Below, piece after piece: positions 224 through 5,639 of a DNA stretch of 64,000 nucleotides (its first letter is position 1; each line of letters opens with the position of its first letter). The stretch is from a virus: positions 1-64,000 of IMG/VR virus record IMGVR_UViG_3300028895_000881; one strand, given 5' to 3'. The notes beneath the pieces are model-generated. The model did no database searches, had not been told where the DNA came from, and saw only the letters and a list, made by a program, of their open reading frames with translations. Position numbers and translations under genes: made by a program.

Positions 224-481
224 TCAACACCCGAATGGGGTTTTAGGTCTGATCTGAATTAAATTGAACTCCCGCTGCTCGTTGGCCGAGAAGCGGTCCA
301 CGACGAAGTCCGAGAAGTCCGGGTTGGCGTTCGCCGGGATACCCGGAACGGAACCGTTGGCCACGGCCTCGGTCACCATCGCGCGGATGTCGTTGTCGGT
401 GGAGTCGTAGAAGACCGGGTCCGGAAGGTCCCCGTTCTCCCCCATGTAGGTGATGTTCACACGTGCCTGTGTCTCGTCCAT
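224..481 (-). CDS. Small ubiquitin-like (beta-grasp?) protein ending ...IRPKTPFG-C
   Basis: 85 aa, AAGGAG SD, C-terminal beta-strand followed by Gly plus one extra residue; directly downstream of a JAB protease. Confidence 0.6.
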   Translation of the reverse strand: MDETQARVNITYMGENGDLPDPVFYDSTDNDIRAMVTEAVANGSVPGIPANANPDFSDFVVDRFSANEQREFNLIQIRPKTPFGC

Positions 482-511
482 TTTCGTTTCTCCTTGAGGT
501 CTTCGGAGTTT

Positions 512-904
512 TTACTCCGTGATGGAAAGAATGTGCTTGTCTGAGTACGTCCTGAGCTTGTCGGCCCACTCCGGAACGCCGTCTACGACGAACGAACCGT
601 ACTTGTACTTGTCTGGGCCTTCGTAGTTCAGACCGATCATGTGGCTCGAGCTGGTGATCCACCAGGTGAGTCGGCGCCCCAGTCCGAGCTCGACGCCCGA
701 GAAGGTAGTGAGGTCGGTCCACGAAGGACCCGGCACCCCACTACCGGGATGGCTGTGAGCGAACCCCAGGAAAGGTTCCCTGCGATGAGCCCACAGAACA
801 TCCCAGAGAACACGGCTGTCAGGAAGACTGCCGCCGGACCTCCCCTCGGGGAGGTGCCAGTAGATCGGACCGTTTCCGGTAACGACTACGCCCGTCTCGA
901 TCAT
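512..904 (-). CDS. JAB/MPN+ (JAMM) metalloprotease
   Basis: From ATG 904 (MIETGVVV): N-terminal Glu and HSHPGSGVPGPSWTD (HxH...SxxD) JAMM motif; start overlaps the upstream stop (ATGA). Confidence 0.8.
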   Translation of the reverse strand: MIETGVVVTGNGPIYWHLPEGRSGGSLPDSRVLWDVLWAHRREPFLGFAHSHPGSGVPGPSWTDLTTFSGVELGLGRRLTWWITSSSHMIGLNYEGPDKYKYGSFVVDGVPEWADKLRTYSDKHILSITE

Positions 905-1488
905 CGCTTCCCCCGCTTTTCCTGGTAGGGGACGCGAGGAATCGCGTCGAGAGTGCCGACAAGAGCCTCGTTGGCAGCCCGTACCTCGGGAGCGATGTGC
1001 TTGGACACCTTGAGGTAGTAGGGATGCTTGAGCCAGTCGGCGTACTGCATGTTGCCGCGAGTCTTGTTGCACTTGCGGCAGGCAGCGACGAGGTTCTCTT
1101 CGGTCTGCGGGCCACCTTCCTCCCAAAGGACGAGGTGGTCCACGGTGAGGGGGACCTTGTCCGCACCGCAGTAGCGGCAGGTGTACCCGTCGCGTCGGAA
1201 GACGTTCCAGGACACACCCTGCTCCACGGTGCGCTGGCACTTGCGAGCCACCGCCTTGTAGAGCTTGCCGTCCTTGGCCTTGGCCAGCACCTCGGTCTCG
1301 ACCAGGTCCGACTGACGGATGAGAGCTTGGAACTCTTCCGTGGTCGGGTGGAGAACGTGCACGTCCCCTTCGTGCTCCCCGAACTCAGGGAACACGACGA
1401 CGTAGGTGCCGCCCTTTCCGGCCCATACGCCGCCCACGAGGAGCACCTCGTGCCCCACGCTCATCAGGTCGAATTCCTTGAATTCCAT
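901..1488 (-). CDS. HNH endonuclease domain protein
   Basis: RRDGYTCRYCG...LTVDH...GG...ENLVAACRKCNKTRG; likely start MEFKEF at 1488. Confidence 0.85.
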   Translation of the reverse strand: MEFKEFDLMSVGHEVLLVGGVWAGKGGTYVVVFPEFGEHEGDVHVLHPTTEEFQALIRQSDLVETEVLAKAKDGKLYKAVARKCQRTVEQGVSWNVFRRDGYTCRYCGADKVPLTVDHLVLWEEGGPQTEENLVAACRKCNKTRGNMQYADWLKHPYYLKVSKHIAPEVRAANEALVGTLDAIPRVPYQEKRGKR

Positions 1489-2824: not shown

Positions 2825-3744
2825 ACAACCAGCTTGCCTTCTCTCACGGCTTGCCGGACAATAGCAGGGAGACTCTCCAAAGTAAAATAGGTGTCGCCCT
2901 TTTCACCCGTGTGATGATCAACGAGACAGATGCCTGCATCAACGATCTGGAGGTTGGTATCGCACACGCACTCGAGGCGCTGTCCATCGACGCGGTACTT
3001 GACGATCCATTCATTCCCACGACGACCTTTTCGGTGGTCGAGGTACTGGGCGCCTCCGACTTGAAGGGCAGCCCTGGCGGCTTCGGTGAAGTCACCTGAA
3101 TGAGCCATCTCGCGGCGAAGTGCTCCGTCGCCAAGCTTCTCCATGAGCTCCTTGCGACGACGCTCCTTCTCCCGACGTGCGGCCTCTTCGGCACGACGAC
3201 GGGCAATCTCCTGACGACGCAGTTCAGCCTGCTCCCGCTGGTACTTCTCCATACGGAAGGCAGCGTCCAGCGCCGGCACGACGCCAGGAATGGTGTGTAC
3301 CTCGTCCTTCTGGTCGAAGTAAGCTTCCATGACCTCGTCCTCGGGACCGAGCGGGAAATCCTGCTCGGCGAAGATCAGCGGTCCCTCCGGGTAGATCCGT
3401 CCGGCTCGCACACGCGAGAACCGGTCGAGCTCCTCGGGAAGGGCGAACACCTTCTCCGAGTAGGCCACGATCTTGGCCGGATCGGGATCGATTCGGGTGT
3501 CGTCGGGGACCAGACGGTCCCCGACGAGGTATCCACTGACCTGGCCCTTGATGAGCTCAGGGACCGGGTCAGCCGACTGAGGATCCTTGGCGGTCTTGCC
3601 TTCGAGGGTGAAGGTGTACCAGCCAAACTCCCGTGGGCGAGTCTTGAGCTTGAACACTCGAAACTCGGAGTGGAGAGACCTACCTCCCGTCCAAGGAAGC
3701 GTTACCGTCTCCTCTTCAGTTGTGAGTAGGTCTCTCCATCCCAT
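2809..3744 (-). CDS. Hypothetical protein with charged helix and C-terminal possible E2/UBC-like domain
   Basis: 311 aa; C-terminal LQIVDAGICLVD...FTLESLPAIVRQA loosely resembles the E2 G-x-I-C-L active-site region; sits in the vWA-JAB-Ubl gene string. Confidence 0.45.
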   Translation of the reverse strand: MGWRDLLTTEEETVTLPWTGGRSLHSEFRVFKLKTRPREFGWYTFTLEGKTAKDPQSADPVPELIKGQVSGYLVGDRLVPDDTRIDPDPAKIVAYSEKVFALPEELDRFSRVRAGRIYPEGPLIFAEQDFPLGPEDEVMEAYFDQKDEVHTIPGVVPALDAAFRMEKYQREQAELRRQEIARRRAEEAARREKERRRKELMEKLGDGALRREMAHSGDFTEAARAALQVGGAQYLDHRKGRRGNEWIVKYRVDGQRLECVCDTNLQIVDAGICLVDHHTGEKGDTYFTLESLPAIVRQAVREGKLVVWRHV

Positions 3745-3755
3745 GGTGTTTCACC

Positions 3756-5639
3756 TCATGCCCAGGCCGGCTTCGTGAGAAGGTCGGTCTGGATGATCTG
3801 GTCGATGAGGGTGACGCGAGGCGCACGCGCCTGCTTGGCCACACCGACCGGGGTTGCAGCGATCAGAGTCCGGAGGGTCCGGGGGATCGCGTAGGGGTCG
3901 TCGAACGTACGCTCGTCGATCATGACGCAGGGGATGCCAAGGTTGGCAGCCGTCTGCCGCACTGCCGTGGTCTCGTAACGAGCTGCACGCCAGGCTGCCG
4001 CACCACCCTGAGCGGTGGTCTTGAGGAAGGCGAAGGCGACCGGGTTGATGCCCGAGTTGCGGACCTGAGCCTCGAAGGTGCGCTGCTGCTCCTCGTCTCC
4101 GATGAACAGGAAGAGCGCGTCCTCATCCTCCTTGGGCTTGTACTGCGAGAGCACCCAGACACCGGCACCGTAGTCGGTACCACCGCCCGCCCGGATTCCC
4201 CGGAAAGATGCCTCGACACCCTTGGTGGACGTGTTCTTGATCGTGACCTCACGGCCAGCGGTGTTGAACACCGAGACGTGGAGCTGCTCCTTCGGGATCG
4301 ACATGAGCAGCTTCGCGATCAGCGGCTTGGCCGCCTCGAGAGCCCCCTGCATCGACGCAGAGATGTCGATGATGACGTAGAGCCGCAGACCACGGATGAC
4401 CTCCTCGACAGCCTTCTGAGCCGCCTTGTCGGCGCCCGTCTCCAGCTTCTCCTTGAGCTCCTTCGAGCGGACGTTGCGGGCGATGTTGGCCGCACGCATG
4501 TCCTCTGCACGAGAGATTGCTCCCTCGAGGCGCTCACGGATGTCCTGGACCTTGAGCAGACCGAGCTCCTCGATGGTCGGGGTCAGGATGATGAGATCCT
4601 TGTCCGACATCGATCCCGCCTCGATGGCCGCAGCCATGATGGCACGAGTCACTCCCGGCTTCGACGGAAGCAGACCAACGATCCGCTTCCAGTTCGGCTT
4701 GGTCTTCTCGATCAGCTCGCAGATCTCCTGCTCGCTCATGCCCTCCCACGACTCGGCGGCCTTGACCGCCTTGCCGATGGCCATCTCACGACGACCGTCA
4801 TCGGACTGCTTCTGCTTCCAGCGAAGGATCTCGAAGAACTTGTCCGAAGTCGGCTTGTAGCCGATGCGACGAGCCAGGGCCATGACCGTGGTACGGAAAC
4901 CCGCCTTGACGAGACCCTCGAGCATCTTCGGGTTCTCCTCGCGGTACCGCAGCCACTTCTCGACCGCCTTGGGCCAACGACCGAGGAACGGACGCTTGGC
5001 CGACTTGCCGAACCCGAGGTCCCGGTTGATCTTCGCGATCTCCGGCAGCATCAGCACGTCGTAGATCCGAAGCAGAAGCTTCGGGTTGAGATCGCGCCCC
5101 TTCTGCTGGATGAGGCACATGGCCTCACCCACCTCACGGTAGTCGTCATCGTCGAACAGGTGCTCACCGCCGTCCATGACCGGGTCGCCCTTGCGGGACT
5201 GCACGAGCATGAATGCTGCGAGCACGACCTTGAGGTCACGGTGCTCCTGCTTGAAGGCGTACGAAGCCCACCGAGCTGCGAACTCGTTGTCGAGCTCCCA
5301 GACCGTTGCGACCTGCTTGTAGAACCAGACCGCCACCTCGGTGAACAGGCCACTCTTCCGGTAGAGCCCGACATCGGTGCGTCCGTTCTTGACGCGACCG
5401 TCGCCGTTCATCGTACCGATGACCGTGCGCACGCTCTTCCGCCCCTGCTTGGTCAGGCGCATGACGGTCTTGGTGCCGTCCTCCTCGACCTTGTGGGTGA
5501 CCGGCTCCCACCGTACACCAGTGACGGTGCGACGGTCGGGCACGACCACGCCAGGGCGGTTGTGAACCATGTGGTCCTGGTGGGCCAGAAGAGACTGGAT
5601 GATGGTCTCTGCGGGTCCGAGTGTTTCCTTGTTCTCCAT
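3756..5639 (-). CDS. Large helical-domain + vWA protein (TROVE/Ro60-like architecture)
   Basis: Likely start MENKET at 5639 (627 aa); C-terminal vWA with MIDAS DISAS, GGTDYG and IGDEE; long Lys/Arg-rich N-terminal region. Confidence 0.7.
   Translation of the reverse strand: MENKETLGPAETIIQSLLAHQDHMVHNRPGVVVPDRRTVTGVRWEPVTHKVEEDGTKTVMRLTKQGRKSVRTVIGTMNGDGRVKNGRTDVGLYRKSGLFTEVAVWFYKQVATVWELDNEFAARWASYAFKQEHRDLKVVLAAFMLVQSRKGDPVMDGGEHLFDDDDYREVGEAMCLIQQKGRDLNPKLLLRIYDVLMLPEIAKINRDLGFGKSAKRPFLGRWPKAVEKWLRYREENPKMLEGLVKAGFRTTVMALARRIGYKPTSDKFFEILRWKQKQSDDGRREMAIGKAVKAAESWEGMSEQEICELIEKTKPNWKRIVGLLPSKPGVTRAIMAAAIEAGSMSDKDLIILTPTIEELGLLKVQDIRERLEGAISRAEDMRAANIARNVRSKELKEKLETGADKAAQKAVEEVIRGLRLYVIIDISASMQGALEAAKPLIAKLLMSIPKEQLHVSVFNTAGREVTIKNTSTKGVEASFRGIRAGGGTDYGAGVWVLSQYKPKEDEDALFLFIGDEEQQRTFEAQVRNSGINPVAFAFLKTTAQGGAAAWRAARYETTAVRQTAANLGIPCVMIDERTFDDPYAIPRTLRTLIAATPVGVAKQARAPRVTLIDQIIQTDLLTKPAWA

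What the first reader, a model, noticed from the sequence alone, without database searches (positions are those of the whole stretch)
224..5639. Phage-borne ubiquitin-like conjugation module: vWA + putative E2 + JAB + Ubl
Seen: a co-oriented string of vWA protein, 311-aa protein, (HNH/hypothetical insertions), JAMM protease and an 85-aa protein ending RPKTPFG-C. Established: bacterial Ubl systems (Bil, Bub, CBASS Cap2/Cap3) use JAB proteases to trim Ubl tails and expose a terminal Gly. Inference: JAB removes the single Cys to expose Gly84, and the Ubl is conjugated to host or phage targets or acts as a decoy against Ubl-based defence. No E1/ThiF is present in the window (the next gene is a methylase), so E1 would come from elsewhere in the genome or from the host.
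Basis: partly seen in the sequence, partly recalled or inferred. Interest (0 to 1): 0.82.

Follow-up and report, generated by a model that had tools for sequence, protein, structure and literature searches.

The report
Ubiquitin-like tagging cassette with Ro60-like partner
This giant-phage fragment carries most of a conserved, apparently undescribed gene cassette that pairs a small ubiquitin-like protein, its trimming protease and its activating enzyme with a Ro60-like RNA-binding protein and an unknown cysteine protein.

Summary
The missing E1 is an artefact of the contig end.

- **Cassette:** In 59 related viral loci the order is always vWA protein, 311-aa protein, JAB, Ubl, ThiF-type E1. 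p311, JAB and Ubl are in 59 of 59, vWA and E1 in 58 of 59 each.
- **Ubl:** The fold model is beta-grasp-like. All 120 homologues keep the FG end, and 114 have RPKTPFG exactly, followed by a disposable tail.
- **JAB:** All seven loci without JAB have a Ubl that stops at that Gly, after at least three separate losses. This supports JAB as the tail trimmer.
- **vWA protein:** It is Ro60/TROVE-like (profile comparison 95%). In relatives the cassette is flanked by stem-plus-tRNA-like, Y-RNA-like RNAs. None lies in this record.
- **311-aa protein:** It has two invariant cysteines, but no test showed it to be an E2.
- **Methylase:** The "methylase" at bases 1-134 is probably an assembly chimera. The true next gene is a LAGLIDADG endonuclease.
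- **Distribution:** The cassette also sits in myxobacterial chromosomes.

I found it in no paper. This scan has already reported the same cassette on other genomes. The target and the chemistry are inferred.

The parts
3756..5639 (-). Ro60/TROVE-like protein with a C-terminal vWA domain (627 aa); first gene of the cassette
   Evidence: VWA_2 over the cut-off. MIDAS residues D425, S427 and S429 are invariant in 41 sequences. Profile-profile match to three TROVE proteins: probability 95.1%, E 3.3e-8, 361 columns, residues 84-519. The TROVE Pfam model itself hits 0 of 41 members. Present in 58 of 59 viral loci.
2809..3744 (-). 311-aa cysteine protein (p311): N-terminal beta-rich domain, long helix, C-terminal helix plus beta-meander plus helix domain with invariant C259 and C273 ('GICL')
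   Evidence: 1159 clusters of homologues, none with a Pfam family. Invariant residues. Fold model pLDDT 86.3. No significant fold or sequence match. Present in 59 of 59 viral loci.
2012..2824 (-). HNH homing endonuclease, an insertion that is not a core part
   Evidence: phrog_374, E 2e-71. Only fragmentary matches in 7 of the 59 viral loci.
1488..2015 (-). 175-aa orphan ORF, an insertion that is not a core part
   Evidence: No family match. No homologue in any of the 59 viral loci.
901..1488 (-). HNH endonuclease, an insertion that recurs at this spot in some relatives
   Evidence: Pfam HNH, E 3.7e-12. Its family is found in 21 of 54 unique loci.
512..886 (-). Minimal JAB/JAMM metallopeptidase (124 aa), the predicted tail-trimming protease of the Ubl
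   Evidence: H44, H46, S55 and D58 are invariant in 31 sequences. The N-terminal Glu is seen by eye in all 35 N-termini that one search printed (12 more matched its pattern). Absent only where the Ubl has no tail.
224..481 (-). 85-aa ubiquitin-like protein precursor; predicted mature end Gly84, tail Cys85
   Evidence: 363 clusters of homologues. RPKTPFG is invariant in 57 aligned sequences. Fold model pLDDT 89.5 with topology bb-a-bb. Tail statistics.
135..192 (-). Start of the next gene, probably a LAGLIDADG homing endonuclease as in the closest relative
   Evidence: Its first 18 residues match the L009 LAGLIDADG protein. The contig that holds 135-5800 runs on into sequence that I read by eye as continuing that match.
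1..134 (.). Probably foreign, chimeric contig end; not part of the cassette
   Evidence: In four runs it lies on separate contigs. Depths are 94.7, 96.3, 90.4 and 186.8, against 28.1, 15.5, 25.4 and 15.7 for the cassette contig. No listed piece bridges 132 to 135 onto the cassette contig.

Best explanation
**What it is**
Window 224-5639 holds four of the five protein genes of a fixed cassette of huge phages and some myxobacteria. The cassette consists of a Ro60/TROVE-like vWA protein, a 311-aa protein with two invariant cysteines, a minimal JAMM peptidase, a beta-grasp ubiquitin-like protein, and a 190-aa ThiF-type E1. In this record the E1 lies beyond the contig end. In relatives, one to three Y-RNA-like RNAs (a two-part stem carrying a tRNA-like domain) flank the cassette.

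**How it probably works**
1. The JAMM peptidase cuts the Ubl after the invariant ...RPKTPFG. In this phage that removes a single Cys.
2. The E1 adenylates the freed Gly84 and takes it onto its invariant crossover-loop Cys.
3. The Ubl is then passed to a protein target. It may go through the invariant Cys273 of the 311-aa protein.
4. This happens on or next to the Ro60-like RNA particle.

**Shown and inferred**
- Shown: the genes, their linkage, the invariant residues, the link between JAB and the Ubl tail, the RNA structure in relatives.
- Inferred: every chemical step, the role of the 311-aa protein, and the target.
For: **Fixed order and strand**
- In 59 viral loci, p311, JAB and Ubl are present in 59, vWA in 58 and ThiF in 58.
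- Only these five families are universal in 54 unique loci.

**E1**
- ThiF is found exactly once in each of four related genomes, next to the Ubl.
- The E1 alignment keeps the GxGxxG loop, DCxDN and an invariant Cys that aligns with MoeB Cys187.

**Ubl**
- The FG end is kept in 120 of 120 homologues. RPKTPFG is exact in 114.
- Among those 114, tails are 0 aa in 13, 1-4 aa in 86, 7-8 aa in 3 and 26-55 aa in 12.
- The fold model has a beta-grasp-like topology.

**JAB**
- The JAMM residues are invariant.
- 7 of 7 JAB-less loci have a tail-less Ubl, against 8 of 55 loci with JAB (Fisher p 1.3e-5).
- JAB loss needs at least 3 changes on the p311 tree.

**p311**
- C259 and C273 are invariant in 42 and in 47 sequences.
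- No other E2 family is present in five related genomes.

**Ro60 link**
- hhalign gives 95.1%. An Atlas features search gives a TROVE lead.
- The Y-like RNA has 31 pairs, 25 of them with compensatory changes. 91.5% of cells are paired, against 69.4% after shuffling (0 of 500 shuffles reach it).
- Full-length RNA matches occur in 52 of 72 loci.
Against: - No E1 and no Y-like RNA lie in this window or its 83-kb record. Both are inferred from relatives.
- Foldseek gave no significant match for the Ubl (best E 0.3) or for p311 (best E 0.28).
- p311 matches no E2 family and has no HPN motif. Its C-terminal domain drew dsRBD matches as weak as the UFC1 ones.
- The E1 is closest to the sulfur-transfer enzymes MoeB and ThiF.
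- The TROVE Pfam model does not hit the vWA protein (0 of 41). Against a single TROVE protein, hhalign gave only 16.6%.
- 20 of 72 loci show no strong Y-like RNA, among them four contigs from bacterial genome bins (L073, L081, L082, L086; cellular flanks checked only for L073).
- No expression data exist: no RNA run holds the stretch.
Confidence: 0.5

Rival explanations
1. Sulfur-carrier system. The E1 turns the trimmed Ubl into a thiocarboxylate, which donates sulfur to thiolate tRNAs or the tRNA-like RNAs, as Urm1/Uba4, TtuB/TtuC and SAMP2/UbaA do. The Ro60-like protein would present the RNA.
For: - The E1 is closest to MoeB (E 6e-17), ThiF and Uba4.
- The cassette sits among tRNA genes. tRNA calls lie within 3 kb downstream in 44 of 52 loci and upstream in 32 of 52.
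- Tailed sulfur carriers trimmed by JAMM peptidases exist: QbsE/QbsD and CysO/Mec+ (recalled, from no call).
Against: - The Ubl ends in FG, not the GG of known carriers (the GG rule is recalled).
- There is no rhodanese in 0 of 5 related genomes. PP-loop matches are only below the cut-off, in 2 of 5, and far from the cassette.
- None of the five universal families is a thiolase.
- p311 has no PP-loop family match.
- The chromosomal copies checked (L073, L087, L088) lie outside tRNA arrays.
Confidence: 0.2
2. E2-independent tagging, as in archaeal sampylation. The E1 alone conjugates the Ubl. The 311-aa protein is not a carrier but an RNA-binding subunit or the main target of the Ro60-like particle.
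For: - No E2 family is present in five related genomes.
- p311 failed every E2 sequence test.
- Its C-terminal domain has a helix, three to four strands, then a helix. It drew dsRBD matches (ADAR2, ILF3, RNase III) at E 0.45-1.4.
Against: - Two invariant cysteines over 36-81% identity are hard to explain by RNA binding.
- The dsRBD matches are as weak as the E2 ones.
Confidence: 0.2
3. Counter-defence device. The phage Ubl or JAB acts as a decoy or eraser against host Ubl-based immunity such as Bil or type II CBASS.
For: - Bacterial Ubl systems do act in phage defence (PMC10097602 and PMC10557695; abstracts in search listings).
- JAB peptidases can reverse conjugation (established knowledge).
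Against: - The cassette brings its own E1 and two further fixed partners.
- It sits in myxobacterial chromosomes among cellular genes.
- JAB is dispensable whenever the Ubl has no tail.
- No PADLOC defence model matches. The only hit is JAB, at E 0.036.
Confidence: 0.05

Closest known systems
Archaeal sampylation (SAMP1-3, UbaA, HvJAMM1) and Thermus TtuB/TtuC with a JAMM peptidase (names recalled; abstract of PMC2948915 seen in the listing)
   Same: A small beta-grasp protein with a C-terminal Gly, a minimal MoeB/ThiF-like E1 without extra domains, a JAMM peptidase, and no recognisable E2 or E3.
   Different: Those Ubls end in GG and double as sulfur carriers. They have no fixed Ro60-like partner, no 311-aa cysteine protein and no Y-like RNA. 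Here the end is FG with a disposable tail.
Bacterial anti-phage Ubl systems: Bil (BilABCD), type II CBASS Cap2/Cap3, Bub (PMC10557695, PMC10097602, PMC11601596; abstracts in the listing)
   Same: An operon of Ubl, E1 and JAB-type peptidase. The E1 profile weakly matches Cap2, BubCD and the 6A-MBL E1.
   Different: Those systems have clear E2 domains, often fused to the E1. No PADLOC model matches the Ubl, p311 or the vWA protein here. This cassette is mainly phage-borne.
Ro60/Rsr with Y RNAs (bacterial YrlA with a tRNA-like domain; Thermus phage phiLo Ro60): PMC4201824 and PMC12135203, abstracts in the listing
   Same: TROVE-like plus vWA architecture, and neighbouring RNAs built of a long stem plus a tRNA-like domain.
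   Different: Known Ro60 loci pair with RNA repair or decay enzymes (recalled), not with a Ubl, E1 and JAMM set. The TROVE Pfam model does not reach this protein.
vWA-MoxR 'FtsH ternary' conflict systems with a full Ubl set (PMC7159879; passages read)
   Same: A vWA protein genetically linked to Ubl, E1 and JAB genes. [quoted passage not shown]
   Different: Those systems have MoxR, FtsH, a RING E3 and a Ubl-E2 fusion. None of these is among the five universal families here.
UFM1 / UBA5 / UFC1 (recalled from memory)
   Same: An 85-aa precursor trimmed of a short tail to a single Gly, a minimal E1, and an E2 without HPN. UFC1 was the only E2 among the weak fold matches of p311.
   Different: No sequence relationship was found, and the fold matches are at E about 1.

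Membership tests
Ubiquitin-like beta-grasp modifier | Beta-grasp fold | tested here: inconclusive
   AlphaFold model pLDDT 89.5, with strands 5-12 and 15-18, helix 29-42, and strands 59-64 and 73-79. Foldseek against PDB gave no hit at E <= 0.001. The best was the FAF1 Ubl domain at E 0.3, and most of the top 50 are Ubl, PB1 or Ras-binding domains.
Ubiquitin-like beta-grasp modifier | Conserved C-terminal Gly that is exposed by processing | tested here: met
   G84 is invariant in 57 sequences. FG is present in 120 of 120 homologues, and the tails vary from 0 to 55 aa. Tail-less forms are found wherever JAB is lost.
JAB/JAMM metallopeptidase | Motif E ... HxH ... S-x-x-D | tested here: met
   H44, H46, S55 and D58 are invariant in 31 sequences. 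An N-terminal Glu is seen by eye in the N-termini printed. The Pfam Prok-JAB score of 19.9 is below the cut-off of 25.
E1 / ThiF-MoeB adenylyltransferase | A ThiF-family gene beside the Ubl | tested here: not met
   Absent from the window and its 83-kb record. Present over the Pfam cut-off in 4 of 4 related genomes and in 58 of 59 viral loci. The contig end explains the gap.
E2 / UBC superfamily (for the 311-aa protein) | Sequence match to UQ_con or Prok-E2_A to E | tested here: not met
   No family for the window's protein. No E2 family in any of 42 members at E <= 1. No PDB sequence match.
E2 / UBC superfamily (for the 311-aa protein) | HPN motif before the catalytic Cys | tested here: not met
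   No conserved H-P-N in alignments A2 and A6. The residues 8-10 positions before C273 vary.
E2 / UBC superfamily (for the 311-aa protein) | UBC fold with a Cys after the four-stranded meander | tested here: inconclusive
   The model has helix 219-229, strands 233-269, invariant C273 and helix 292-301. UFC1 matches are only at E 0.9-1.5, next to dsRBD matches at E 0.45-1.4. A domain-level fold search could not be run (caps).
Ro60 / TROVE-vWA protein | TROVE domain followed by a vWA domain with MIDAS | tested here: met
   hhalign of 41 cassette proteins against 3 TROVE proteins: 95.1%, E 3.3e-8, residues 84-519. D425, S427 and S429 are invariant. Against this: TROVE Pfam hits 0 of 41, a single TROVE protein gave 16.6%, and there is no Ro60 hit in PDB by sequence.
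Ro60 / TROVE-vWA protein | Neighbouring Y RNA | tested here: not met
   No full-length match in the window or the rest of the record. In relatives, 52 of 72 loci have one, with strong covariation. Binding was not tested.
Bil / CBASS Cap2-Cap3 defence systems | Match to the systems' protein models | tested here: not met
   PADLOC gave nothing for the Ubl, p311 or the vWA protein, and JAB only at E 0.036.
PRTRC system (ParB-related, ThiF-related cassette) | Match to the NCBIfam PRTRC models | tested here: not met
   No NCBIfam hit for JAB, Ubl, p311 or vWA. Relatives' E1 scores 24.6-34.3 bits against a cut-off of 144.75.
Ubl sulfur carriers (ThiS, MoaD, Urm1, TtuB) | GG end and a linked sulfur-using enzyme | tested here: not met
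   The end is FG. Rhodanese is in 0 of 5 genomes, PP-loop matches are only below the cut-off in 2 of 5, and no such family is in the cassette.

The most novel reading that the evidence does not exclude
The Ro60-like protein and its Y-like RNAs act as an RNA-built platform that directs the Ubl machinery. Either RNA-bound proteins are tagged according to which RNA is loaded (RNA-guided protein tagging), or the activated Ubl is joined to the RNA particle itself. The 311-aa protein would be a new kind of cysteine carrier, unrelated in sequence to known E2s.
Probability: 0.2. Interest if true: 0.95.

Novelty: new variant of a known kind. Interest (0 to 1): 0.78.

Why it matters
Prokaryotic ubiquitin-like systems are known from sulfur transfer and, recently, from anti-phage defence. 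Ro60-Y RNA particles are known from RNA quality control. A fixed genetic link between the two has not been described in any paper I could search. Here it is conserved across hundreds of huge-phage sequence clusters and reaches myxobacterial chromosomes.

The link gives a testable lead on two open questions: what bacterial and phage Ro60 particles do, and how minimal Ubl systems without a recognisable E2 choose targets.

An isolate, Paraliomyxa miuraensis SMH-27-4, carries a chromosomal copy. Genetics is therefore possible without culturing a huge phage.

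Tried and rejected
**Sequence searches that gave nothing**
- PHROGs, NCBIfam and PADLOC on the Ubl, p311 and the vWA protein.
- PDB sequence profiles of the Ubl and p311.
- BFVD fold search of p311.
- ESM Atlas on p311.

**Attempts to link p311 to E2 families**
- A profile of the p311 C-terminal domain, searched against 1.84 billion representatives, found 422 proteins. The best 150 all have the same roughly 300-aa architecture, so there is no bridge to E2 families.
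- E2 families (UQ_con, Prok-E2_A to E) are absent from five related genomes. The single hit was a 16-residue match at E 0.03. For UQ_con the control genomes did not ring either, so that blank is weak.

**Other rejected ideas**
- PRTRC membership.
- Zinc site in p311: C261 and H277 are not invariant.
- Rfam found only tRNAs in window 1-12000.

**Expression**
- No RNA holder is listed for the stretch. This says nothing about expression.

**Literature**
- Five full-text searches found no description of the cassette.
- Passages were read in PMC1779556, PMC7159879 and PMC7824862. PMC7162821 holds none of six search terms.
- PMC5938088 is not held.
- Supplements were not consulted and may list such genes.

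**Tree**
- The p311 tree is the quick tree, not the careful one.

Full report
**1. What is in the window**

The record is an 83-kb fragment of a viral contig that CheckV rates 16% complete. GC is about 0.6. Sixteen tRNA genes lie at 6630-10548.

On the minus strand, from 5639 down to 224, lie these genes:
- a 627-aa vWA protein;
- a 311-aa protein (p311);
- an HNH endonuclease;
- a 175-aa orphan;
- a second HNH endonuclease;
- a 124-aa JAB peptidase;
- an 85-aa protein ending RPKTPFGC.

**2. The cassette is fixed and includes an E1**

The only related phage record in GenBank, Rctr197k, has vWA, p311, JAB and Ubl homologues and a ThiF gene a few genes further on.

A Ubl-profile scan of viral contigs returned 59 loci, mostly from contigs of 100-620 kb. 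By tblastn, p311, JAB and Ubl are present in 59 of 59, vWA in 58 and ThiF in 58. The order and strand are always vWA, p311, JAB, Ubl, ThiF.

After all-against-all clustering of same-strand ORFs in the 54 unique loci, only these five families are universal (54, 54, 54, 53, 53). The next most common families include HNH homing endonucleases (the one seen in 21 of the 54 unique loci is this window's HNH1 family).

ThiF is the only PF00899 match in each of four related genomes, and it lies beside the Ubl.

**3. The contig end**

In contigs of four public runs, bases 1-132 lie on separate contigs of depth 90-187. The contig that holds 135-5800 has depth 15.5-28.1 and continues for 1315 further bases of different sequence.

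I read the first 30 of those bases by eye on the minus strand. They continue the ORF that starts at 192 as a close match to the LAGLIDADG endonuclease that sits between Ubl and E1 in the nearest relative, L009.

The 'methylase' has no family or phage match and is probably a chimeric end.

**4. The Ubl**

The family has 363 clusters at 90% identity, none with a name or a Pfam family.

In 57 aligned members R78 to G84 are invariant. Among the 120 best homologues, 114 carry RPKTPFG exactly and the other six keep FG. Among those 114, the tail after Gly is:

| Tail length | Proteins |
|---|---|
| none | 13 |
| 1-4 residues | 86 |
| 7-8 residues | 3 |
| 26-55 residues | 12 |

The AlphaFold model (pLDDT 89.5) has two strands, a helix and two strands, with a floppy tail. 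Foldseek found nothing significant. Its weak hits are mostly ubiquitin-like, PB1 and Ras-binding domains.

**5. JAB**

The HxH...SxxD residues are invariant, and an N-terminal Glu is present in the N-termini I inspected.

The strongest functional evidence is comparative. Across viral and genome loci there are 67 distinct Ubl sequences, of which 62 were counted.
- Seven loci lack JAB, with p311 and Ubl only 54-287 nt apart. All seven have a Ubl that ends at the Gly.
- Of the 55 counted loci with JAB, 47 have a tail and 8 do not (Fisher p 1.3e-5).
- The five sequences left out (four with a variant motif, one with no p311 on its contig) all have JAB and a tail.

On a quick p311 tree, JAB loss needs at least three changes. 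JAB is therefore needed when there is a tail, which is what a trimming protease predicts.

**6. The E1 (relatives only)**

It is about 190 aa. It keeps the nucleotide loop, DCxDN, and an invariant Cys148 that aligns with MoeB Cys187 in the crossover loop.

The closest solved relatives are MoeB (E 6e-17), ThiF, Uba4, TcdA and UBA5. Cap2 and BubCD are weaker. All NCBIfam hits are far below their cut-offs.

**7. p311**

The family has 1159 clusters, all about 310 aa. C259 and C273 ('G-I/V-C-L') and the FTLES motif are invariant or nearly so.

The model (pLDDT 86.3) has a beta-rich N-terminal domain, a 48-residue helix, and a C-terminal domain of helix, four strands and helix.

It matches no Pfam family (0 E2 hits in 42 members) and no PDB sequence. 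Foldseek gives only E 0.3-1.5 matches, which include both the E2 UFC1 and several dsRBDs. No known E2 family occurs in five related genomes.

An E2-like carrier role is possible but not shown.

**8. The vWA protein is Ro60-like and the cassette carries Y-like RNAs**

*Protein.* Pfam sees only the vWA domain (41 of 41 members) and never TROVE. The Atlas features search listed TROVE clusters at 0.92-0.94, which is a lead only.

I found three TROVE proteins elsewhere in two myxobacterial genomes. Aligned together and compared with 41 cassette proteins, they gave hhalign probability 95.1%, E 3.3e-8, over residues 84-519. A single TROVE protein had given only 16.6%.

*RNA.* The first ARAGORN 'tRNA' after the E1 often has an impossible or rare anticodon. 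It lies 75 nt after the E1 even in the chromosomal copies L087 and L088.

Its flanks pair into a long two-part stem. In 20 aligned copies the consensus structure has 31 pairs, 25 of them with compensatory changes. 91.5% of cells are paired, against 69.4% after shuffling (0 of 500 shuffles reach it) and 33-44% when the partners are slid.

A covariance model finds full-length copies of 60 bits or more in 52 of 72 loci by my hand count, which is 32 of the 52 loci not used to build it. There are often two or three copies, placed either after the E1 or just before the vWA gene.

In this window and the rest of its record the model finds only true tRNAs. The RNA here is probably off the contig.

**9. 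Distribution**

A scan of one genome per prokaryote species gave 18 loci, mostly in Myxococcota bins, plus the isolate Paraliomyxa miuraensis SMH-27-4.

Several of these are phage-like, with 8-26 tRNAs. L087, L088 and L073 are flanked instead by cellular genes:
- L087: YcaO, halogenases, P450;
- L088: gyrA, a Ser/Thr kinase;
- L073: VanZ, Kelch proteins.

The cassette is therefore a self-contained unit shared by huge phages and myxobacterial chromosomes.

**10. Reading**

The best-supported sequence of events is trimming by JAB, activation by the E1, and transfer to an unknown target in the setting of a Ro60-like RNA particle. p311 is the most likely carrier or partner.

A sulfur-carrier role remains a serious rival. 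The E1 is MoeB-like and the setting is tRNA-rich. Against it, the FG end, the lack of any linked thiolase or rhodanese, and the chromosomal copies outside tRNA arrays weigh.

The decoy idea is the weakest.

**11. Novelty**

None of five literature searches, and none of the passages I read, describes this cassette. A survey of jumbo phages mentions TROVE proteins and MoxR-vWA pairs but holds no occurrence of JAB or ThiF.

Earlier agents of this scan reported the same cassette, the Ro60 likeness and the tRNA-shaped RNAs on other genomes. I re-derived the cassette, the E1 adjacency, the chromosomal copies and the tRNA neighbourhood before reading those notes. I tested the RNA and TROVE leads afterwards.

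- the link between JAB loss and a tail-less Ubl, with at least three independent losses;
- the evidence that the contig end is chimeric.

Noticed in passing
window 1-143: Bases 1-132 sit on contigs of 3-12 times higher depth than the rest. Short pieces at 103-144 (31-41 letters in each run) reach depth 150-380. This looks like a repeat through which the contig end was misjoined.
   Followed up: partly
window 901-1488, 2012-2824, 5848-6594; L009 10272-11234: The cassette is riddled with homing endonucleases. This window has three HNH genes, and the nearest relative has a LAGLIDADG gene between Ubl and E1. The insertion points vary between phages.
   Followed up: partly
L002 15904-15996: A related 497-kb phage encodes a bacterial small SRP RNA (57.7 bits, cut-off 40) about 1 kb after the cassette, among tRNAs and Y-like RNAs.
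   Followed up: no
L034, L037, L038, L051, L061, L076, L080, L085 (first 'tRNA' after the E1): ARAGORN and Rfam call the cores of the Y-like RNAs tRNAs. The anticodons called include ATC, ATT and ATA, or loops of 2 or 4 bases. tRNA counts of huge phages may be inflated by such elements.
   Followed up: partly
L001 (Rctr197k, KX853510) 2543-3043 and 6984-8006: In the GenBank record the Ubl is read as a 166-aa protein with about 60 residues after the Gly. The p311 homologue is not annotated; a plus-strand CDS is annotated over it. The vWA gene is only a misc_feature.
   Followed up: partly
P0086, P0093, P0112 (Ubl homologues): Some Ubl tails are Cys-rich extensions of about 28-30 aa that look like small zinc-binding modules. 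The Ubl can therefore be made as a fusion that must be cut.
   Followed up: no
L091, L093 (Paraliomyxa miuraensis) and L092: The myxobacteria that carry the chromosomal cassette also encode one or two separate TROVE-domain proteins elsewhere in the genome.
   Followed up: partly
window 1-5800: Near-identical DNA (80-99% of sampled words) is held by eight sediment and seawater metagenome runs from seven coded studies. Five of the runs may be the source sample.
   Followed up: partly
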